A DNA stretch of 24,644 nucleotides from a virus, in the UHGV virus genome UHGV-2020843. One strand, given 5' to 3'. Shown here piece by piece: positions 15,352 through 24,307 of the stretch. How positions within the stretch are numbered: the stretch's first letter is position 1; every line of letters begins with the position of its first letter. The translations under genes and the position numbers were made by a program. Below the pieces are notes generated by a model. It saw nothing but the letters and a program-made list of their open reading frames with translations. It made no database searches and was not told where the DNA came from.

Positions 15352-15978
15352 ATGACATACGATAGTGAATTCGGATCACATGTATCCCTATATCGGGATA
15401 GAATCAAACAGGTTATTGATGACTCCCTAAACGAACATCTTAACTCAATGATTCTACGTGTTGATCTGCATGACCCAATTGATACAGAAAATATGGATAA
15501 CCCATTCTTTCAACCCAGGGTTGACTCTGGTGCTATATCTCGCTTTACCAGTGCGTTAAAAGCAAAGCTTAAACACGATAAGCATATTAAAACTCAACGG
15601 AAAGACTGGCCTGATACTCGACATTCAACCTTACGTTACGCATGGGTCCGAGAATATACCAAAAATAGAAAGCGGCATTACCATTTGATACTGTGTTTCA
15701 ATCAGGATGCTTATTATCATTTAGGTGATTACGACTTAAACCGTAACACGTTACGTACAATGATAACGACAGCTTGGTACAGTGCACTTGGCATCCCTAT
15801 AGATAGCTCGGGGAAGTTAGTTAATTACCCGCCAAATGGCAAATACCTTCTCAATCGTAAAAGGGACAACTTTGAGCAGACTTATAGCGATTTGATGAAT
15901 AGGGTGGATTACATGACCAAAGTAAGGACTAAAATAGTCGGTGACGGAGACCGTAATTTCGGCTGCAGTCGCGGGTAA
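15352..15978 (+). CDS. yfjJ: YfjJ, YagK/YfjJ-family protein (inovirus Gp2-like replication-initiation fold)
   Basis: 208-aa ORF with AGGA ribosome-binding site, followed by a hairpin terminator. Confidence 0.7.
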   Translation: MTYDSEFGSHVSLYRDRIKQVIDDSLNEHLNSMILRVDLHDPIDTENMDNPFFQPRVDSGAISRFTSALKAKLKHDKHIKTQRKDWPDTRHSTLRYAWVREYTKNRKRHYHLILCFNQDAYYHLGDYDLNRNTLRTMITTAWYSALGIPIDSSGKLVNYPPNGKYLLNRKRDNFEQTYSDLMNRVDYMTKVRTKIVGDGDRNFGCSRG

Positions 15979-15996
15979 TTTATTTTTTACAACAAT

Positions 15997-16035
15997 GGCC
16001 TTTCTTATGGCTGGAAAGGCCTGATTTGTTTGTAT
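15997..16035 (+). terminator. Intrinsic terminator between convergent yfjJ and yfjK
   Basis: GGCCTTTC-9 nt loop-GAAAGGCC hairpin followed by T-rich TGATTTGTTTGTATT. Confidence 0.6.
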
Positions 16036-16155
16036 TAAGATATCGGTAATCTTTTGATGGTTGGAAGCCCGTCCTGGTAGACGACCTAGCCTACCGAAGA
16101 TGTGAGTTATTCAAAAATGTCGCTTTCCCGCGTTCCGTAGACAAACGTACCTAAA

Positions 16156-18345
16156 TCAATGTCGTCTAATACCGAGCGCGCGCCTGATAAACATCTGATC
16201 AACGTACCCAATCGATCTACTCCAAATGTCCTGAGTATCCCGAAGATACTGGCTCAACTCATCCACATCAGCCTCGTCGGAAAATTCCAGCAAGTCTACC
16301 AGTCGGTGTAACGTCTGAATGGGAATGCCAATCTCTTCTAAGGCATTGACACCTGGTGGTAGATGGAAACTTTCGAACGCCAATTTGACATGTGTGTAAT
16401 CGACTTTGCTGCGTATACCACGCTTTACAGCGTGGTGTTTAACTACATCCTCCATCAAGCTGAGCACCTTAGGTAGGGTATAGCCGAAGGTATTGGTTAT
16501 GAGCTTCAAATCATTGTTGAGGGCAATGGAAAGAGTACGTTTCTCCCCTTCAGAAATCCACTGTCGTGCATAATCGATCTGATTTTTCAGATATTCCGAA
16601 TAACTTTCAGCACTTAAATAGCCGGCAAGTTTTGCGATCATGACATCCGTAGGCTTAACAGGGACCCCATTGCGACTGAACGTATGGGGAACCAGTCTGG
16701 CAATGATCTTTGCAAAGGTCTTGAGGAAGTTTGTCGCGGGAGTCCAGTGAAACACTAACGAGGAAAATTCGTTATCGTCCATCATCTCGAACATGCTTTG
16801 CAGCATTTCGAACTGCTCGACACGGAAGTACGAATGCTTCTTCACAAGGTCGATGGAAACACGGTCGTTTATGAAAACCTCATCAAAGCGATCCTGTGAA
16901 AACTCGGACAAGTGGTCTGGTTGAACGCTGGCTAACAGGTTGATTGGGGTATCAATGCCCTGAATACCGAGCGGAATATCCACCTCTTGATTGAGATTGT
17001 CTTCCGGGATTTCCTCCAGGCAAAAGATTTTGCCGACGAAGTGAACGCCCATGCGCCCGGCGCGACCTTTGATGTTCCCATGGGTGAATTTGTCAATGCT
17101 GCGAGTTCCATCGCGGTTGTCGTAGATCACAACGTTCTTAGCGATAGTGTTGACTCCTTCAATGATCGTGGAGGTGCAGAGCAAAAAGCGCAGTTTTCCA
17201 GCATTGAATTGGTCGGCAGTGTATTGCTGCAGTGCCCTCGGTAGCGCGCCAAAATGCAAGCCAATACCGTTTCTAAGGGCGACTGTGTAATCCCAGTCGG
17301 CATCGAACTCTTCGCTGACCCAGTCGACATGGGGATTCTCAGTCGGAGTGCCATGCCCAAGCCTGATCAGCTCGCGCGCCACCAGGCCCGCAACAGTTGG
17401 TGACTTGCAATAAATGATCGTTGCGTCGACACATGCGTGCGCGATTTCCCCCAGCGCTTTGAGCTTGGCTTTGTCGTCATTCGCTTTGATGCCGAACGTC
17501 TTAACATCTAGCGCGACTGTATTGAAGTCGGTAGAAACGAAAGTATGCGGATATCCAAGTTTTTCGAGACCGCGAATGCTGTTAACGAACGGTCCCGTCA
17601 GGTAAAACTGCCTGGAGACCTTAAGCAGTTTGCTTAACGCAATGTTGAGCTCGATGACTCGTTCGTCTTGATGATCAATGTCCCCGCTTTTCAGTTGTCG
17701 GAACGCCAACTTGTAAAACTCGTCAATGACGAAGAGGTCAATGTCGACGATGTCGTCACGCTCGTTCACTCGCTCCTGAGTTAACACATAAACAGCCTGA
17801 TCGGAATGGCACACTTGGGAACTGTGGTGGATGATCTGATATCGGTCACCGAATCGCTCTTGCAGTCGGCGACGGGTTTCGTCGGCAAGAGCCACGGTTG
17901 GAACAACCAGAACAAGCCGTTTCAAAGTTCCCATGCCGAGCAATGAATCGACGATTGCACTTTTGCCCATGCTTGTAGGTGCACTCAGCACCACGTTTTG
18001 ACCAGACTTGAGCAGATCGAATATGTGGAACTGCATTGAGTGGAAAACATAACCATCCGAGAATGGCGTCCGGTATAGCTCAAGCACCCTCAGGTCATCC
18101 GGTGTCAGGCTGGTGAACTCCTTTTTGAGATACGGGAACAAACCTGATTTTCTCACCATATTTTTCAAAATTGTGGTGTGCTCGGAAAACCGCTCGCGCG
18201 AATCGAGAGCTCGCACGATCAAGTCCCGTCCCAAGTCATACGAAACAGGGTTAGACAACAGCTTGTTAACCGCAAACAGATAATTGAACGATGAGAAGTC
18301 CTCACCCTGCAGGCTATGTTTCGCCTGTTCATAGATCTCTGTCAT
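16156..18345 (-). CDS. yfjK: SF2 helicase YfjK (AbpB), Hachiman-type defence helicase HamB homologue
   Basis: 729 aa with Walker A LSAPTSMGKS and DEAD/DExH-like VIDEFYKL; ATGA overlap with the upstream yfjL stop. Confidence 0.85.
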   Translation of the reverse strand: MTEIYEQAKHSLQGEDFSSFNYLFAVNKLLSNPVSYDLGRDLIVRALDSRERFSEHTTILKNMVRKSGLFPYLKKEFTSLTPDDLRVLELYRTPFSDGYVFHSMQFHIFDLLKSGQNVVLSAPTSMGKSAIVDSLLGMGTLKRLVLVVPTVALADETRRRLQERFGDRYQIIHHSSQVCHSDQAVYVLTQERVNERDDIVDIDLFVIDEFYKLAFRQLKSGDIDHQDERVIELNIALSKLLKVSRQFYLTGPFVNSIRGLEKLGYPHTFVSTDFNTVALDVKTFGIKANDDKAKLKALGEIAHACVDATIIYCKSPTVAGLVARELIRLGHGTPTENPHVDWVSEEFDADWDYTVALRNGIGLHFGALPRALQQYTADQFNAGKLRFLLCTSTIIEGVNTIAKNVVIYDNRDGTRSIDKFTHGNIKGRAGRMGVHFVGKIFCLEEIPEDNLNQEVDIPLGIQGIDTPINLLASVQPDHLSEFSQDRFDEVFINDRVSIDLVKKHSYFRVEQFEMLQSMFEMMDDNEFSSLVFHWTPATNFLKTFAKIIARLVPHTFSRNGVPVKPTDVMIAKLAGYLSAESYSEYLKNQIDYARQWISEGEKRTLSIALNNDLKLITNTFGYTLPKVLSLMEDVVKHHAVKRGIRSKVDYTHVKLAFESFHLPPGVNALEEIGIPIQTLHRLVDLLEFSDEADVDELSQYLRDTQDIWSRSIGYVDQMFIRRALGIRRH

Positions 18346-19958
18346 ACGACCTCTCTCACCTTCTCATCAACTAATTGGGTTAACCGCTCAAGACTCGGGG
18401 CTGGATAAATGAATACGTGGATGCAAAGATTCGCAAACGGCGAATCCTCGATGAGGTCAGCCGCGAATTTTTCGAACAGCACCGCTGTTTCTTTCTCCAG
18501 GTCATCCTCGAACCCCGGCGTTTCAGGCTCGGTTAGTAGATTAGAGTCGTAGCCCACGAACAGAACAAACGTGAAACGATCGAGGTGAGCATCGAAAGGT
18601 TGGCTGCCATCAAGAATTTCGTCAATGTCGTGGCGAAGCAGGTAGTTATCGTCTTTAATGTCGAGGATTTTTTTGCGCGCGGTATCGATGCAATCCGAAA
18701 TGTCCTCGTACAACTGATCCCGTATCTCCGGCAATCTGACGGCAATGTTAATATCAGTCACCAACTCGCTGAAGCCAATCCAAAGCTGATCACCTTCTGG
18801 ATCGCGGCGAACGATATGCACGTTTTCAAGAATTTTTTCGGCCCCTGCTTTTTCCACGTATAGCATGCAAGGAATAGGCTGGCTTTCGTGGTGCTGCCGG
18901 ATCGTTGCGTGCAACAGCACTCGACCCAAAAATTCGCTGACGTCATGGAGCGATTTGAAGACGGAATTCTTTAGTCGTTCTCGCTTTTCAATGAATGTCA
19001 GTTTATGAATATCAGACATTTCTTTTGGTCGGAGAAAAACCTCATCCAACCATTGACAGACGTTATCCGCGATGTGCTTGTAGCGGTATTTCTTAAGTGA
19101 GTACTGCTGATGTAGAACCTGGCCTTTACGCTTAGCGCAGACCGAAGCCATAGGCGCTCTAAATGGCGTAAGGATGTGGGGTAAGTCCCGTTTGACGTAG
19201 ATTTTGCGGCCTGACCGAGATTGGTCATCTTCGACACGCTGCTTGAACCACTCAAGTAGGTCTGGTCGTAAGTAGGACTTGTCATCAGCACTGTGAATGC
19301 GTCGAGAATGCTCGCCCTTGCGCGTCACAGTATCAAGGATGCGGCACCAAATGTCTTCGGCGACGGTTTCGGAACTGAGAATGACCCCATGTAGATCTTG
19401 GGAGGCCAGCCGTATGTTCTTGATCCCTAGAAGTTCCAGTTCGCGCAGGGATGAAAACACTTCCCATGTAGCCGCATCGATCCAATCTGAAACGCTTATA
19501 CCTGAGTCTGTTAAAAAATTGTCTGTGCGTTTGTTGAGGTCATCGATGAGTTCCTGTCGACCTGGCTTATCTAGTCGGGCGTTTGGGCTGATCGTCAAGT
19601 ACTCAAGGGTTTTGTTGACCTTTTCCTCTGTGACGATGGAGTACCTACGTCCAAGGGACAGGTCAGACTCACACTGCATTGATTTGTGCAAAATTGAACT
19701 GCAGGGGATCGTCTTTTTATCAGCACCTTTTGAATTCTGAACGATGTCCGAAATGTTCCAACGTGTTTTGCCGGTGCTTTTTACCTGAACGAAGTCGATG
19801 TATCCATCAGATACAATGTCGATATCGTCTGTGACCTCGCAGCGCACACTGCGGATAGTCTTGTCACGAAGCATTCGGGTGACATGGTAAGCGGCTACGC
19901 AGTCCTGAAATAAGAAACCGTGCTTGGCGGCTACTCCGCCTGAATCGTTCGACTCCAT
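18342..19958 (-). CDS. yfjL: YfjL (AbpA), Hachiman-type defence effector HamA homologue (DUF1837-type)
   Basis: 538-aa ORF immediately upstream of and translationally coupled to the helicase, in the conserved CP4-57 position. Confidence 0.8.
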   Translation of the reverse strand: MESNDSGGVAAKHGFLFQDCVAAYHVTRMLRDKTIRSVRCEVTDDIDIVSDGYIDFVQVKSTGKTRWNISDIVQNSKGADKKTIPCSSILHKSMQCESDLSLGRRYSIVTEEKVNKTLEYLTISPNARLDKPGRQELIDDLNKRTDNFLTDSGISVSDWIDAATWEVFSSLRELELLGIKNIRLASQDLHGVILSSETVAEDIWCRILDTVTRKGEHSRRIHSADDKSYLRPDLLEWFKQRVEDDQSRSGRKIYVKRDLPHILTPFRAPMASVCAKRKGQVLHQQYSLKKYRYKHIADNVCQWLDEVFLRPKEMSDIHKLTFIEKRERLKNSVFKSLHDVSEFLGRVLLHATIRQHHESQPIPCMLYVEKAGAEKILENVHIVRRDPEGDQLWIGFSELVTDINIAVRLPEIRDQLYEDISDCIDTARKKILDIKDDNYLLRHDIDEILDGSQPFDAHLDRFTFVLFVGYDSNLLTEPETPGFEDDLEKETAVLFEKFAADLIEDSPFANLCIHVFIYPAPSLERLTQLVDEKVREVV

Positions 19959-20217
19959 TTAGACATCCGTGACAATTTTGCGAAAATTAAGGAGATGTTA
20001 TGACACAGTCCAATCGGATCACTGCATCATCACCAGTGATCTAAATACTTCACAGCCATTCTCGGTCGCAGGTATCAAGCTTTTCAGGATTCCACAAATA
20101 TTGTAACCCTGACGTCTAATTTGGTTATATAACATACTGCCCCAACTAACGTAAGGTAGGCACAGCCTTAATCAAGGTTTTGGTTTTCAAATAGTTCAGA
20201 GCTGAGACCGCCAACCG

Positions 20218-20284
20218 CACTATGGCACTATGGCACTATGGCACTATGGCACTATGGCACTATGGCACTATGGCACTATGGCAC
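20218..20284. repeat. Perfect tandem octamer repeat (TATGGCAC) x 8, intergenic
   Basis: Eight uninterrupted copies of TATGGCAC (20221-20284) preceded by a partial CAC; lies between the yfjM stop and the yfjL start. Confidence 0.95.
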
Positions 20285-20333
20285 CGCCAGCGATTGTAAT
20301 CACACTTGATATTATAAAACACAGTTGCACGCA

Positions 20334-20597
20334 TTATTTCCTGGTTGGTAGGGTCATATCTCGATGCTCTTTGAGCAATGTCAACATCGCGTGTTCATGG
20401 CTTTCTATATTGTTGATGCCTTGCCCATCCGGACCCCACTCCTTATAGCTCATCATGATGGCTTGTTTTGGGCTCTCTGCTCGTTCTGTTTCGACGTAGA
20501 ATTTTTTCTTGTCTGCTGGCGAATAATTACTAAGTATCGAGTTGCTGCTTGGTGAGATCAGGAAGAGGTTACCGAAACGATGGACATCATCCCCCAT
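20334..20597 (-). CDS. yfjM: Small uncharacterised island protein YfjM
   Basis: 87-aa ORF in the CP4-57 position between yfjL and rnlA. Confidence 0.6.
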
Positions 20598-20738
20598 TTT
20601 GTGGACTGCCCCCCCGGTAGACGATCCTGCCCTATAGTTGGAGTGCCCCCTATTCAGGTGGCTAAATTTAGCAAATCAATACACTTCAGGGGGGTATTAT
20701 TGTAGAGTTTCCCCATATGTTTCTATGGGATCCAGGAA

Positions 20739-21812
20739 ATGACAATCAGGAGTTACAAAAACTTAAATCTGGTCAGGGCAAATATCGAGACTGAATCCAG
20801 ACAATTCATTGAAAATAAAAACTATTCAATCCAATCAATTGGTCCTATGCCAGGGTCAAGGGCTGGGCTTCGGGTCGTATTTACCAGACCAGGGGTTAAC
20901 TTGGCAACTGTGGACATTTTTTATAACGGGGACGGTTCGACTACAATTCAATATCTCACTGGAGCCAATCGTTCTCTGGGCCAAGAGTTAGCGGATCATC
21001 TTTTTGAAACCATCAATCCTGCTGAATTTGAGCAGGTAAATATGGTACTGCAAGGATTTGTAGAGACAAGCGTTCTACCTGTACTTGAGCTATCAGCAGA
21101 TGAATCGCATATAGAGTTCAGAGAACACTCTCGTAACGCTCATACCGTAGTGTGGAAAATTATTTCCACCAGCTATCAGGACGAATTGACTGTGAGCCTG
21201 CATATCACAACAGGTAAGCTCCAGATTCAGGGCCGACCGCTGTCATGTTACAGAGTTTTCACGTTTAACTTGGCAGCCCTGCTTGATTTACAGGGTTTGG
21301 AGAAAGTGCTAATCCGCCAGGAGGATGGTAAAGCTAATATTGTTCAACAGGAGGTTGCCCGCACTTACTTGCAGACTGTAATGGCCGATGCTTACCCGCA
21401 TCTCCACGTGACTGCCGAAAAATTGCTCGTTTCAGGGCTATGTGTTAAACTCGCCGCCCCTGATTTGCCTGACTACTGTATGTTACTTTATCCTGAACTA
21501 CGCACCATTGAAGGTGTCTTAAAAAGTAAGATGAGTGGGTTAGGCATGCCAGTACAGCAGCCGGCAGGTTTTGGAACTTACTTTGATAAACCTGCTGCTC
21601 ATTACATTCTGAAACCGCAATTTGCAGCTACTCTTAGACCGGAACAGATTAACATCATCAGCACAGCCTATACTTTTTTTAATGTGGAACGTCATTCTCT
21701 GTTCCACATGGAAACTGTGGTCGATGCCAGCCGTATGATTTCTGATATGGCCCGGTTGATGGGTAAAGCCACTAGAGCGTGGGGAATAATCAAGGACTTA
21801 TATATTGTTTGA
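20739..21812 (+). CDS. rnlA: RnlA toxin (RNase LS endoribonuclease)
   Basis: 357 aa starting MTIRSYKNLNLVRANIETESRQFIENKNYS; followed by overlapping antitoxin gene. Confidence 0.85.
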   Translation: MTIRSYKNLNLVRANIETESRQFIENKNYSIQSIGPMPGSRAGLRVVFTRPGVNLATVDIFYNGDGSTTIQYLTGANRSLGQELADHLFETINPAEFEQVNMVLQGFVETSVLPVLELSADESHIEFREHSRNAHTVVWKIISTSYQDELTVSLHITTGKLQIQGRPLSCYRVFTFNLAALLDLQGLEKVLIRQEDGKANIVQQEVARTYLQTVMADAYPHLHVTAEKLLVSGLCVKLAAPDLPDYCMLLYPELRTIEGVLKSKMSGLGMPVQQPAGFGTYFDKPAAHYILKPQFAATLRPEQINIISTAYTFFNVERHSLFHMETVVDASRMISDMARLMGKATRAWGIIKDLYIV

Positions 21813-22176
21813 AATCACCGGAATTAACGTCTCAGGGGCTCTAAAAGCTGTCGTTATGGCGACCGGCTTCGAGAACCCTTTGTCCTCAGTTAATGAAATT
21901 GAGACGAAACTTTCTGCCCTACTGGGTAGTGAGACCACTGGTGAAATCCTTTTTGACCTCTTGTGCGCTAACGGTCCAGAGTGGAACCGCTTCGTTACGC
22001 TGGAAATGAAATATGGCCGGATCATGCTGGATACGGCCAAAATTATTGATGAGCAGGACGTTCCGACACATATCCTGAGCAAACTGACTTTTACTTTACG
22101 TAATCATCCTGAGTACCTAGAAGCCTCTGTTTTGTCTCCCGATGATGTACGCCAAGTCCTGTCAATGGATTTTTGA
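21805..22176 (+). CDS. rnlB: RnlB antitoxin
   Basis: 123-aa ORF overlapping the rnlA 3' end by 8 nt; canonical toxin-then-antitoxin order of the rnlAB module. Confidence 0.8.
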   Translation: MFEITGINVSGALKAVVMATGFENPLSSVNEIETKLSALLGSETTGEILFDLLCANGPEWNRFVTLEMKYGRIMLDTAKIIDEQDVPTHILSKLTFTLRNHPEYLEASVLSPDDVRQVLSMDF

Positions 22177-22478
22177 AACTCTTCTTTCTAAACGAACCAG
22201 TATAGAATTCGCCCTTTTGGCATGATATTAACTTGTCCAATATGATCAAATAGCATTAACCCCCCCTCACAACGTCCTGCATAGGGAACACGTTTTCCCC
22301 TGTGCACCCACGACTAAATTTCCCCCCCTTTAAACTTCTCAATAATGTCACCAATTTTCTGGAAATCCTATGATGCCTTTCCCGGTAAATGGTGCTGTGA
22401 GTTCAGAAAGATTCTGCAATCTATGTGCATTGAAAAAATCTTCAGATAGATATCATTCTCCTGAACAATCCGATGAAC

Positions 22479-22511
22479 GGCAGAACCTCGCGGTTCTGCC
22501 GTTTTTGTTTT
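22479..22511 (+). terminator. Intrinsic terminator-like hairpin in the leader immediately upstream of yfjP
   Basis: GGCAGAACC-TCGC-GGTTCTGCC followed by GTTTTTGTTTT; ends 10 nt before the yfjP ribosome-binding site. Confidence 0.6.
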
Positions 22512-22530
22512 ACTTTTCAGAGGAGTGGTG

Positions 22531-23394
22531 ATGAAAAATTTTGAAGTTCTGCAGCCACTACAGAACTCCCTTTCCGGTCTACCGCTATGGGTATCTGAAC
22601 GTATATTGCAGCAGATAAATCAGTTAACCCACTACGAGCCAGTGATCGGCATCATGGGTAAAACTGGGGCGGGAAAGAGTAGCCTTTGCAATGCCCTGTT
22701 TGCCGGTGAAGTATCGCCGGTCAGCGATGTAGCGGCCTGTACACGTGATCCTTTACGCTTTCGCCTGCAGATTGGAGAACACTTTATGACCATCGTGGAT
22801 CTGCCCGGCGTGGGCGAAAGTGGCGTTCGCGATACCGAGTATGCTGCGCTGTACCGCGAACAACTTCCCCGGCTCGACCTGATTCTGTGGCTGATTAAGG
22901 CTGATGATCGGGCACTGGCGACTGATGAGCATTTTTACCGTCAGGTGATTGGCGAAGCATACCGGCATAAGATGCTGTTTGTTATCAGCCAGTCAGACAA
23001 AGCTGAACCCACCAGCGGTGGAAATATCCTTTCCACAGAGCAGAAACAAAATATCAGCCGCAAAATCTGCCTGCTGCATGAGCTATTCCAGCCCGTGCAT
23101 CCGGTGTGTGCCGTGTCGGTTCGCCTGCAGTGGGGACTAAGGGTGATGGCAGAGCGGATGATTAAGTGTCTGCCGCGTGAGGCCAGCAGCCCGGTAGTAG
23201 CGCTACTGCAACATCCCTTTCGAACAACGGTAGCCCGGGAGCAGGCACGTGACGATTTCGGTGAAACCGTAGGTGCCATACTCGATACGGTAAGCACCTT
23301 TCCCCTTATTCCCGCCCCGGTGCGGACCATTATTCAGGCCGTGCGTTCCTCGGTGGTGTCAGTGGCCCGCGCTGTCTGGGATTTCTTCTTCTGA
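22531..23394 (+). CDS. yfjP: YfjP, predicted GTPase (YeeP/YkfA paralogue family)
   Basis: P-loop GIMGKTGAGKSSL and DLPG G3-like motif; 287 aa from ATG at 22531 with AGGAG ribosome-binding site. Confidence 0.8.
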   Translation: MKNFEVLQPLQNSLSGLPLWVSERILQQINQLTHYEPVIGIMGKTGAGKSSLCNALFAGEVSPVSDVAACTRDPLRFRLQIGEHFMTIVDLPGVGESGVRDTEYAALYREQLPRLDLILWLIKADDRALATDEHFYRQVIGEAYRHKMLFVISQSDKAEPTSGGNILSTEQKQNISRKICLLHELFQPVHPVCAVSVRLQWGLRVMAERMIKCLPREASSPVVALLQHPFRTTVAREQARDDFGETVGAILDTVSTFPLIPAPVRTIIQAVRSSVVSVARAVWDFFF

Positions 23395-23485
23395 GTGTTT
23401 AATTCTGCCCTATTATTCTCCGAGCCCTGTCGCAAGTGCGGCAGGGCTTTCTTTATTTGTTTTACCCATACTGAGGAGTCTGCTT

Positions 23486-24307
23486 ATGACCCGTCTGGCT
23501 TCGCGCTTTGGCGCTGCAAATCTTATTCGCCGTGACCGTCCGTTAACCCGTGAAGAGTTATTTCGCGTGGTGCCCAGCGTATTCAGTGAGGATAAACACG
23601 AATCCCGCAGTGAACGCTACACGTATATACCCACAATTTCCCTGCTGGACAGCCTGCAGCGGGAAGGCTTCCAGCCATTCTTTGCCTGTCAGACACGGGT
23701 ACGTGACCCCCGTCGTCGTGAGCATACTAAGCATATGCTGCGCCTACGTCGGGAGGGGCAAATTACCGGTAAACAGGTTCCGGAAATTATCCTGCTTAAC
23801 TCTCACGATGGCACCAGTTCGTACCAGATGCTGCCGGGCATGTTCAGGGCGGTGTGCCAGAACGGTCTGGTCTGCGGCGAGTCGTTTGGCGAGGTGCGGG
23901 TGCCACACAAGGGGGATGTGGTGAGTCAGGTTATTGAGGGGGCGTATGAAGTGCTGGGGATTTTTGAGCGTGTGGAAGAAAAGAGGGATGCCATGCAGTC
24001 GTTGCTTTTACCGCCACCTGTGCAGCAGGCACTGGCAAAAGCAGCGCTTACGTATCGCTTTGGTGAGGACCACCAGCCGGTTACTGAATCGCAGATACTC
24101 TCCCCACGCCGCTGGCAGGATGAGAGCAATGACCTTTGGACCACCTATCAGCGGATTCAAGAAAACCTGATTAAGGGCGGACTCAGTGGGCGTAATGCTA
24201 AAGGCGGACGAACTCATACTCGTGCCGTGCGTGGCATTGACGGGGATGTGAAGCTTAACCGTGCGCTGTGGGTGATGGCAGAAACACTGCTCACGCAACT
24301 GCAGTAG
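23486..24307 (+). CDS. yfjQ: YfjQ, DUF932-family protein
   Basis: 273-aa ORF following yfjP, matching CP4-57 order; GAGGAG ribosome-binding site. Confidence 0.75.
   Translation: MTRLASRFGAANLIRRDRPLTREELFRVVPSVFSEDKHESRSERYTYIPTISLLDSLQREGFQPFFACQTRVRDPRRREHTKHMLRLRREGQITGKQVPEIILLNSHDGTSSYQMLPGMFRAVCQNGLVCGESFGEVRVPHKGDVVSQVIEGAYEVLGIFERVEEKRDAMQSLLLPPPVQQALAKAALTYRFGEDHQPVTESQILSPRRWQDESNDLWTTYQRIQENLIKGGLSGRNAKGGRTHTRAVRGIDGDVKLNRALWVMAETLLTQLQ

What the first reader, a model, noticed from the sequence alone, without database searches (positions are those of the whole stretch)
22430..23394. Terminator-like hairpin in the yfjP leader suggests attenuation control of the GTPase/DUF932 pair
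A candidate promoter (TTGAAA 22430-22435, about 15-16 bp spacer, TATCAT 22451-22456) is followed by a strong terminator hairpin at 22479-22511, which ends only 10 nt before the yfjP ribosome-binding site. A terminator between promoter and start codon implies conditional readthrough (attenuation or antitermination). The intergenic region upstream also has two C7 runs. The function of the yfjP/yfjQ pair is unknown.
Basis: seen in the sequence. Interest (0 to 1): 0.4.

Follow-up and report, generated by a model that had tools for sequence, protein, structure and literature searches.

The report
Promoter–terminator cassette guarding yfjP GTPase
The 100 bases before the E. coli prophage gene yfjP hold a conserved promoter followed at once by a real transcription terminator, and the promoter has the same sequence as a repeated promoter-type motif of giant (jumbo) phages, so the gene may be built to stay off until such a phage infects.

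Summary
TTGAAA-15-TATCAT (22430-22456) is followed by a 13-bp hairpin (22475-22504) with a T-tract ending at 22511, 8 nt before the yfjP ribosome-binding site. It is not chance. The same order (box, short leader, hairpin plus T-tract, RBS) precedes YfjP/YkfA/YeeP-type GTPase genes in more than 80 loci across Enterobacterales. The hairpin covaries and is replaced by unrelated hairpins in distant members. A second conserved terminator lies between yfjP and yfjQ. No promoter fits downstream of either hairpin, so every yfjP/yfjQ mRNA must read through. Classical attenuation is excluded: the leader is 4-14 nt, with no leader peptide, alternative fold or Rfam family. The 25-bp box (22441-22465) is conserved far beyond sigma-70 needs. 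It matches a multicopy intergenic motif of phiKZ-like jumbo phages (SPN3US: 19 sites in 150 kb against 0.5 expected), where such motifs are taken to be early promoters read by the virion RNA polymerase. Phage copies lack the terminator. My best reading, which is an inference, is a phage-type promoter gated by a terminator, giving infection-triggered expression. A constitutive leaky attenuator is the main rival. No start-site or 3'-end data were found.

The parts
22430..22435 (+). -35-like hexamer TTGAAA (family consensus TTnnAA), at the upstream edge of the conserved block
   Evidence: Conservation starts sharply at -34 in 77 distinct leaders. Shimada 2014 assigns TTGAAA-15-TATCAT to both yfjPQ and ykfA.
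22441..22465 (+). 25-bp conserved box TTCAGATAGATATCATTCTCCTGAA. It contains the -10 hexamer TATCAT (22451-22456) and the dyad TTCA-N17-TGAA, and it matches the jumbo-phage promoter-type motif
   Evidence: Near-invariant in more than 80 loci. Exact pattern present in several copies in large phage contigs. SPN3US has 19 sites in 150 kb against 0.5 expected. Positions outside the search pattern also agree. It is the only match in the window.
22463..22463 (+). Predicted transcription start (G, 7 nt after the -10; T-1 and G+1 invariant). Not mapped experimentally
   Evidence: G+1 in 77 of 77 and T-1 in 71 of 77 leaders. No start-site record found.
22475..22504 (+). Leader terminator t1: 13-bp stem with loop TCGC
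   Evidence: Covariation. Unrelated replacement hairpins in distant homologues.
22502..22511 (+). T-tract TTTTTGTTTT of t1. The expected 3' end would give a leader RNA of about 46-49 nt
   Evidence: Mean 6.2 T in the 8 nt after the stem, against 2.5 A in the 8 nt before it, which gives plus-strand polarity.
22520..22525 (+). yfjP ribosome-binding site GAGGAG
   Evidence: Sequence; conserved in alignments A1 and A3.
22531..23394 (+). yfjP, a YeeP/YkfA-family GTPase (287 aa)
   Evidence: Annotation. Pfam MMR_HSR1 and Dynamin_N.
23422..23449 (+). Second terminator t2 between the yfjP stop codon and the yfjQ RBS, followed by TCTTTATTTGTTTT
   Evidence: d score 30. Conserved in nearly all GTPase-DUF932 loci: 96% of cells paired, 38 G.U cells, 0 of 500 shuffles.
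23473..23478 (+). yfjQ ribosome-binding site GAGGAG
   Evidence: Sequence. GAGGAGTCTGCTTATG is nearly invariant.
23486..24307 (+). yfjQ, a DUF932 protein (273 aa)

Best explanation
The yfjP leader is a promoter-terminator cassette that travels with YeeP/YfjP/YkfA-family GTPase genes. Shown: a conserved promoter-like box is followed after about 12 nt by a genuine intrinsic terminator and then directly by the RBS. A second terminator precedes yfjQ. No promoter fits downstream of either hairpin, so host RNA polymerase starting at the box or reading in from upstream cargo such as rnlAB should mostly stop after about 46-49 nt, and only readthrough expresses yfjP and, less still, yfjQ. Also shown: the box matches, position for position, a multicopy intergenic motif of phiKZ-like jumbo phages of enterobacteria (SPN3US, Erwinia, Cronobacter, Serratia and Klebsiella phages). 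In that phage group such motifs are regarded as early promoters read by the injected virion RNA polymerase. The phage copies lack the terminator. Inferred: the island gene is wired to the phage's own transcription signal. It is kept off in uninfected cells by the terminator, which handles the weak sigma-70 recognition of the same AT-rich box, and it is switched on when a jumbo phage's polymerase, or a phage-modified polymerase, initiates at the box and passes the terminators. In other words, expression is triggered by infection.
For: Anatomy. Conservation in 80 genomic loci plus plasmid copies down to 43% protein identity, with unrelated hairpin sequences. Covariation of t1 and t2. The box is conserved at positions that sigma-70 does not read (-22 to -13, -1 to +3). 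The phage link rests on several results. The exact 20-position pattern occurs in several copies in phage contigs of 98-322 kb, upstream of non-GTPase ORFs. Those contigs are phage, with a terminase and a 749-aa phiKZ-type major head protein. BLAST of a 39-nt consensus hits 89 phage records at 308 places, and nearly all records listed are jumbo phages. SPN3US has 19 sites against 0.5 in shuffles; 14 of the 17 plus-strand sites lie 48-116 nt upstream of a co-oriented CDS, including RNA polymerase beta-type genes. Positions outside the search pattern agree (A-34, A-29, A-28, T-23). The host window and 32 kb of CP4-57 contain no other match. A terminator follows the motif in 63 of 70 island leaders but in only 3 of 40 phage leaders. 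The review PMC7598289 states that each RNAP-encoding jumbo phage has a conserved AT-rich motif centred near -10 that marks virion-RNAP early promoters. The islands carry anti-phage cargo immediately upstream: rnlAB, abpAB, a retron Eco8 effector, and a methylase with a helicase. A hint that transcription here depends on polymerase properties: in an rpoZ mutant, yfjP probes appear in both the most-increased and the most-decreased RNAP occupancy lists, and yfjQ mRNA rises 4.8-fold (PMC5811629).
Against: There are no start-site, 3'-end or infection expression data for this leader. In phiKZ the virion polymerase works inside the early infection vesicle and is not known to reach host DNA (PMC13282480). 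Phage transcription units in these contigs end in ordinary hairpin plus T-tract terminators (seen upstream of the promoters), so phage polymerases may also stop at t1. The early-promoter status of the motif in SPN3US-type phages is taken from a general statement in a review, not from mapped transcripts. Part of the phage-island match is circular, because the phage sites were selected with the island pattern. Sigma-70 holoenzyme binds the spacer in vitro, and the -35-like TT is better conserved in the islands than in the phages, so a purely host-driven promoter remains possible. YfjP has no demonstrated defence role; PADLOC gives only weak P-loop matches to LeoA/LeoBC.
Confidence: 0.4

Rival explanations
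1. Constitutive leaky attenuator and insulator that uses host RNA polymerase only. The box is a weak sigma-70 promoter. Terminators t1 and t2 act as fixed valves that keep a possibly harmful GTPase and DUF932 protein at low, graded levels and block read-in from variable upstream cargo. On this view the resemblance to phage promoters reflects ancestry or shared AT-rich promoter logic and has no present function.
For: Sigma-70 holoenzyme binds both the yfjP and ykfA spacers in vitro, and the ykfA spacer has no other sigma-70-like site. Both terminators score as genuine. In K-12, t1 is also the first terminator downstream of rnlB. No regulator was identified. Intercistronic partial terminators are a known device, for example rplL-rpoB (my own knowledge).
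Against: It does not explain near-invariance of spacer positions -22 to -13 and of +1 to +3 across GTPases only 43-57% identical, whose hairpins were completely replaced. It does not explain why the promoter always lies upstream of the terminator rather than downstream of it. It does not explain the position-for-position match to a multicopy jumbo-phage motif.
Confidence: 0.3
2. Control by an island- or host-encoded DNA-binding factor acting at the box. This could be a repressor binding the dyad TTCA-N17-TGAA that straddles the -10 and the start site. Alternatively it could be a Q/AlpA-like processive antiterminator loaded at the promoter. A candidate is the uncharacterised 'geneX' protein with a ribbon-helix-helix-like tail, whose stop codon abuts the box in 22 loci. 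That layout resembles lambda Q-PR'-tR'. The gene is absent from K-12.
For: The four outer dyad pairs are complementary in 47-51 of 58 distinct boxes. Terminators occur in series before successive genes, as in Q- and AlpA-controlled operons (PMC7969949, PMC9371919). GeneX lies immediately upstream in 22 loci, with a weak Arc-like match in its tail.
Confidence: 0.15
3. The hairpin is simply the terminator of the upstream transcription unit (rnlAB in K-12, geneX elsewhere), and the box between the stop codon and the hairpin is incidental.
For: There is no other plus-strand terminator between the rnlB stop (22176) and the hairpin. In 22 loci geneX ends 4-60 nt before the box.
Against: The hairpin is retained where the upstream gene is divergent (30 of 72 loci). 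It is linked at a fixed short distance to the box and the GTPase RBS in every context, including plasmids. The box is under its own strong constraint.
Confidence: 0.07
4. The short terminated leader RNA of about 46-49 nt is itself the product, acting as a small RNA or decoy, and GTPase expression is a by-product.
For: It would have a 5' single-stranded stretch with partly conserved GAACAUACC followed by a terminator hairpin with a U-tail, the shape of an Hfq-type small RNA.
Against: The 5' stretch shrinks to 4-5 nt and changes sequence in distant members. No complementary target was found in 32 kb of CP4-57. There is no Rfam family, and no 3' end was reported in the Term-seq tables held.
Confidence: 0.05

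Closest known systems
Early promoters of phiKZ-like (Chimalliviridae) jumbo phages, read by the injected virion RNA polymerase
   Same: A conserved AT-rich core of about 10 nt centred near -10 within a longer motif. The SPN3US-type motif aaaaWWTTCAGATAKATATTATCTnnGTGA agrees with the island box at essentially every informative position from -34 to +2 (review PMC7598289).
   Different: The island copy sits in a bacterial integrative element in front of a GTPase, and it has C rather than T at -9. It also has a better conserved -35-like TT and is followed by a strong intrinsic terminator, which phage copies lack (3 of 40 against 63 of 70). Recognition of either copy by the virion polymerase was not tested here.
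Lambda PR'-tR' with Q, and P. aeruginosa PalpB-tB with AlpA (processive antitermination)
   Same: A promoter is followed by a terminator ahead of the first gene, with further terminators in the operon. Conserved sequence lies between -35 and -10, where the Q and AlpA binding elements lie.
   Different: No Q- or AlpA-like protein was found. The -10-like pause element is not conserved. The terminator lies only about 12 nt from the predicted start.
Classical leader attenuators and riboswitches (trp, pyrBI, thiC)
   Same: An intrinsic terminator lies between the promoter and the start codon.
   Different: The leader has no leader peptide, no alternative antiterminator fold and no aptamer. The stretch upstream of the stem is only 4-14 nt.
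Intercistronic partial terminators such as rplL-rpoB (from my own knowledge)
   Same: t2 sits between two co-transcribed genes, with no promoter after it, and should lower expression of the distal gene.
   Different: Here the same device also precedes the first gene, and it is conserved as part of a mobile-element module.
Satellite or island genes switched on by helper-phage transcription factors (P4 with P2 Ogr/Delta; PICI operons) (from my own knowledge)
   Same: A mobile element would use a phage-specific transcription signal to sense infection.
   Different: In those systems a phage activator acts on host polymerase. Here the signal would be the phage polymerase's own promoter combined with a host-type terminator.

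Membership tests
Intrinsic (Rho-independent) terminator | G+C-rich stem-loop with a short loop | tested here: met
   13 pairs, 7 GC, loop 4. Hairpin energy -18 to -20 kcal/mol.
Intrinsic (Rho-independent) terminator | U-tract immediately 3' of the stem on the transcribed strand | tested here: met
   TTTTTGTTTT in K-12. Mean 6.2 T in 8 nt across 46 leaders, against 2.5 A on the other side.
Intrinsic (Rho-independent) terminator | Structure conserved through compensatory change | tested here: met
   11 of 12 pairs show changes on both sides, and 0 of 500 shuffles reach the observed score. Unrelated hairpins occur in distant members.
Intrinsic (Rho-independent) terminator | RNA 3' ends at the U-tract in vivo or in vitro | not testable with these tools
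   The Term-seq supplement texts held contain no entry for yfjP.
Sigma-70 promoter | -35 and -10 hexamers with a 16-18 nt spacer | tested here: inconclusive
   TTGAAA and TATCAT are present, but the spacer is 15 nt in all loci, and the scan tool does not call it.
Sigma-70 promoter | Binding by RNA polymerase holoenzyme | not testable with these tools
   From the literature: genomic SELEX peaks in both the rnlB-yfjP and perR-ykfA spacers (PMC3946193).
Sigma-70 promoter | Mapped transcription start | not testable with these tools
   Not found in the start-site supplements held.
Leader-peptide or alternative-hairpin attenuator | Conserved leader ORF or mutually exclusive antiterminator fold | tested here: not met
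   The only overlapping ORF (22370-22531) starts in non-conserved DNA. Only 4-14 nt lie upstream of the stem.
Riboswitch or other described cis-regulatory RNA | Match to a curated RNA family | tested here: not met
   No Rfam hit at the gathering threshold. Only sub-threshold hits appear at permissive E-values, as expected by chance.
Q/AlpA-type processive antitermination | Conserved factor-binding element within the promoter | tested here: inconclusive
   Spacer positions -22 to -13 are near-invariant, but no factor is known to bind them.
Q/AlpA-type processive antitermination | -10-like sigma-dependent pause element in the initially transcribed region | tested here: not met
   GAACAT or AACAAT occurs in many leaders, but others have GAACGC or GAATCC.
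Q/AlpA-type processive antitermination | A Q- or AlpA-like protein encoded nearby | tested here: not met
   E. coli AlpA gives no match to the solved P. aeruginosa AlpA chains. The geneX model shows no Q-like fold.
Jumbo-phage (phiKZ-like) early promoter motif | Sequence agreement with the phage consensus at its conserved positions | tested here: met
   Exact 20-position pattern in phage contigs. The profile comparison includes positions outside the pattern.
Jumbo-phage (phiKZ-like) early promoter motif | In the phage: multicopy, intergenic, in sense orientation upstream of genes | tested here: met
   SPN3US has 19 sites against 0.5 expected, and 14 of the 17 plus-strand sites lie 48-116 nt upstream of a co-oriented CDS. 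Several copies occur per contig.
Jumbo-phage (phiKZ-like) early promoter motif | Transcription by the virion RNA polymerase early in infection | not testable with these tools
   Only a general statement from the review PMC7598289 is available. No mapped SPN3US transcripts were found.

The most novel reading that the evidence does not exclude
A family of enterobacterial integrative islands has placed a GTPase gene (often followed by DUF932) behind a copy of the early promoter of phiKZ-like jumbo phages, and has added host-type intrinsic terminators. The gene would then be silent under host transcription and transcribed only when the phage's own polymerase is present. That would make it a transcriptional infection sensor aimed at nucleus-forming jumbo phages, and would imply that the virion polymerase can act on host DNA.
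Probability: 0.3. Interest if true: 0.85.

Novelty: new variant of a known kind. Interest (0 to 1): 0.62.

Why it matters
YfjP/YkfA/YeeP GTPases and their DUF932 partners are among the most widespread genes of unknown function in E. coli islands. They sit directly beside a hotspot of anti-phage cargo. This work shows that they carry a fixed regulatory cassette that has not been described in any source I could search. The cassette gives a concrete handle on when these genes are expressed. If its promoter is read by jumbo-phage polymerase, that would be a new way for bacteria to detect phages that hide their DNA from DNA-targeting defences. It would also predict a function for the GTPase module, and it would give a simple reporter for virion-polymerase activity. 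If the cassette is instead only a leaky attenuator, it is still a clean natural example of a promoter-proximal terminator valve that is conserved by structure rather than by sequence.

Tried and rejected
1. AlpA as a Q-like antiterminator. The shared name with P. aeruginosa AlpA is not homology: E. coli AlpA is a 70-aa PF05930 protein and does not hit the solved AlpA chains.
2. YfjR (WYL) as the binder of the box. Its own upstream region carries different repeats (GGACA-N5-6-TGTCC). The resemblance between GCAGAA..TTCTGC there and the t1 stem is not conserved in other loci. The literature gives no binding at yfjP.
4. Extra copies of the box elsewhere in the islands. They are second GTPase copies or remnants such as ypjI, or two-mismatch hits at about the chance rate.
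5. A promoter box in the yfjP-yfjQ spacer. None was found.
6. Strand assignment from G.U against A.C counts in t1. It is uninformative (28 against 21), although t2 has 38 G.U cells.
7. Small-RNA target search in CP4-57. Only the self-match was found.
8. Start-site and 3'-end data in the supplements of six papers. No entry for yfjP was found; the files may be truncated.
9. Fur, LexA, OxyR, IHF, ops/RfaH and alternative sigma consensus sequences were compared by eye. None is convincing. The IHF-like WATCAA-N4-TTR match is partial.
10. YfjP homologues in phage genomes. None was found, so the cassette is not simply a phage gene carried over with its promoter.

Full report
Context. The window is E. 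coli K-12 DNA that runs into the cryptic prophage CP4-57. The order of genes is rnlA 20739-21812, rnlB 21805-22176, a 354-nt spacer, yfjP 22531-23394 (GTPase), then yfjQ 23486-24307 (DUF932).

Observation. TTGAAA lies at 22430-22435, followed by a 15-nt spacer and TATCAT at 22451-22456. A 13-bp hairpin spans 22475-22504 with loop TCGC. The T-tract ends at 22511, the RBS GAGGAG is at 22520-22525 and the ATG at 22531. The scan tool calls the hairpin. The fold is -27.3 kcal/mol with z = -3.6, and a classical terminator score is clearly positive. The two C7 runs exist but lie in K-12-specific DNA.

The element is real and belongs to the GTPase gene.
- Homology to paralogous loci (ykfA and other GTPase-DUF932-WYL islands) begins at about 22429, exactly at the putative promoter. 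DNA further upstream is unrelated cargo: rnlAB, a retron Eco8 effector, a methylase with a helicase, IS elements.
- A protein-based search returned 80 loci from many genera of Enterobacterales, with GTPase identity of 52-100%. All show the same order: box, about 6 nt, TGAA, hairpin, T-tract, RBS.
- In 46 distinct leaders, 90% of stem cells pair against 30-53% for slid controls, and 11 of 12 pairs change on both sides.
- In distant members, and in plasmid copies down to 43% identity, the hairpin has an unrelated sequence but keeps the T-tract. One copy precedes Ag43 instead of DUF932.
- T-richness lies 3' of the stem only.
- The nearest upstream ORF is co-oriented in 41 distinct loci and divergent in 30. 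The hairpin is therefore not just the terminator of a neighbouring gene, although in K-12 it is also the first terminator after rnlB.

Consequences of the anatomy. Only 8-25 nt separate the T-tract from the RBS, so no promoter fits there, and every yfjP mRNA must traverse the terminator. Between the predicted start (G22463, invariant) and the stem there are 12 nt in K-12 and 4-5 nt in distant members. This leaves no room for an alternative fold, a leader peptide or an aptamer, and Rfam has nothing. Classical attenuation is excluded.

More terminators. A second hairpin with a T-tract (23422-23449) lies between the yfjP stop codon and the yfjQ RBS. It is conserved in nearly all GTPase-DUF932 loci, with 96% of cells paired and many G.U pairs, which points to RNA of the plus strand. 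That spacer has no promoter box. Outside the window, the GTPase remnant ypjI has its own copy of the box and hairpin, and yfjX/lfgA is preceded by another hairpin with a T-tract.

Promoter.
- Genomic SELEX with sigma-70 holoenzyme gave peaks in both the rnlB-yfjP and perR-ykfA spacers. The authors assigned TTGAAA-15-TATCAT to each (PMC3946193). The ykfA spacer has no other sigma-70-like site.
- The box is conserved far beyond what sigma-70 needs. Conservation starts sharply at -34. TTCAGAYAKA at -22 to -13 and T-1, G+1, A+2, A+3 are near-invariant.
- TTCA and TGAA form a dyad around the -10.

Search for a factor. P. aeruginosa AlpA is a Q-like antiterminator with the same promoter-terminator layout, but E. 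coli AlpA is an unrelated 70-aa protein. YfjR has different repeats upstream of its own gene and no reported binding here. In 22 loci an uncharacterised gene ('geneX', 310-400 aa, with a ribbon-helix-helix-like tail) ends 4-60 nt before the box. This resembles lambda Q-PR'-tR', but its predicted fold matches no antiterminator, and K-12 lacks the gene.

Phage link.
- Searching IMG/VR for the exact box pattern gave 49 places. About a third are GTPase leaders. The rest lie in large phage contigs (98-322 kb), with several copies per contig, upstream of unrelated ORFs.
- Those contigs encode a terminase, virion proteins and a 749-aa phiKZ-type major head protein.
- A 39-nt consensus hits 89 GenBank phage records at 308 places. 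Nearly all records listed are phiKZ-like jumbo phages of Salmonella, Erwinia, Cronobacter, Serratia, Klebsiella and Vibrio.
- In 150 kb of SPN3US there are 19 sites with at most 4 mismatches, against 0.5 in shuffles. Of the 17 on the plus strand, 14 lie 48-116 nt upstream of a co-oriented gene.
- Positions outside the search pattern also agree with the island profile.
- Host DNA in the window and in 32 kb of CP4-57 has no other match, and base composition is the same in both.
- A review states that every RNAP-encoding jumbo phage has such an AT-rich motif centred near -10, which marks early promoters read by the virion polymerase (PMC7598289).
- Phage copies are not followed by terminators (3 of 40), whereas island copies are (63 of 70).

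Synthesis.
- Shown: a conserved promoter-type box, two genuine terminators that must be read through, and identity of the box with a jumbo-phage promoter-type motif.
- Inferred: the terminators silence host transcription, and the gene is expressed when a jumbo-phage polymerase, or a phage-modified polymerase, uses the box.
- Objections: in phiKZ the virion polymerase is enclosed in the early infection vesicle. Phage transcription units themselves end in ordinary terminators. No expression data exist. YfjP is not a known defence protein.
- One experimental hint that polymerase properties matter here: in an rpoZ mutant, RNAP occupancy within yfjP is redistributed and yfjQ mRNA rises 4.8-fold.
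- The main rival is a constitutive leaky valve driven by sigma-70 alone.

Novelty. I found no description of this leader in Rfam or in the searchable literature. It is a new variant of promoter-proximal termination control. If the phage-sensing reading holds, it would be a new kind of infection sensor.

Noticed in passing
window 15978-22429, with L003, L008 and L002-L009 upstream of the box: The DNA immediately left of the conserved box is a cargo hotspot. K-12 carries abpAB, yfjM and rnlAB there. Other strains carry a retron Eco8 effector, a methylase with a DEAD-box helicase, IS elements or hypothetical genes, in either orientation. The conserved block starts sharply at -34 of the promoter.
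   Followed up: partly
L013:2736-3899, L047:2710-3894, L035:2969-3898 and 19 further loci (not in the window): An uncharacterised protein family ('geneX', 310-400 aa) has no Pfam or NCBIfam match and only 34 clusters in 5.8 billion proteins. It has a C-terminal ribbon-helix-helix-like tail, and its gene ends 4-60 nt before the box with the stop codon inside the -35-like ATTnnAAA. The predicted fold has no informative match.
   Followed up: partly
L010:30455-30516 and L010:30874-30896 (MG1655 2775454-2775895, outside the window): The pseudogene ypjI is a truncated second GTPase copy with its own box and hairpin. The antirestriction gene yfjX/lfgA is preceded by another hairpin with a T-tract 24 nt before its ATG.
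   Followed up: partly
window 22543-22569: A 12-bp inverted repeat (GAAGTTCTGCAG..CTACAGAACTCC) lies at codons 5-13 of yfjP. The scan tool flags it as a minus-strand terminator-like site. It appears specific to the K-12 yfjP allele.
   Followed up: no
The blocks lie in the same order and at similar spacing. This may be a relic of a yfjR-type promoter region, but the alignment is weak.
   Followed up: partly
L010:24488-24703 and homologous spacers upstream of yfjR (just beyond the window end): Conserved repeats GGACAnnnnnTGTCC and GTCCATACCCTGTCC lie upstream of the WYL regulator gene yfjR in many loci. They are probably its operator and are unrelated to the yfjP box.
   Followed up: no
window 19958-20334: The window is 16 bp longer than NC_000913.3 somewhere between abpA and yfjM (coordinate offset 196 upstream against 180 downstream). 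An ORF there (20230-20448) begins with a duplicated MALWHYGT peptide, which suggests a short tandem repeat difference.
   Followed up: no
SPN3US (L145-L147) and the IMG/VR phage loci L097-L144: Phage copies of the motif are usually preceded by a hairpin plus T-tract terminator of the previous gene. Many are followed by a small 5'-proximal stem-loop that starts at or near the predicted +1, with aatcgactatta-like sequence before the RBS in SPN3US.
   Followed up: partly
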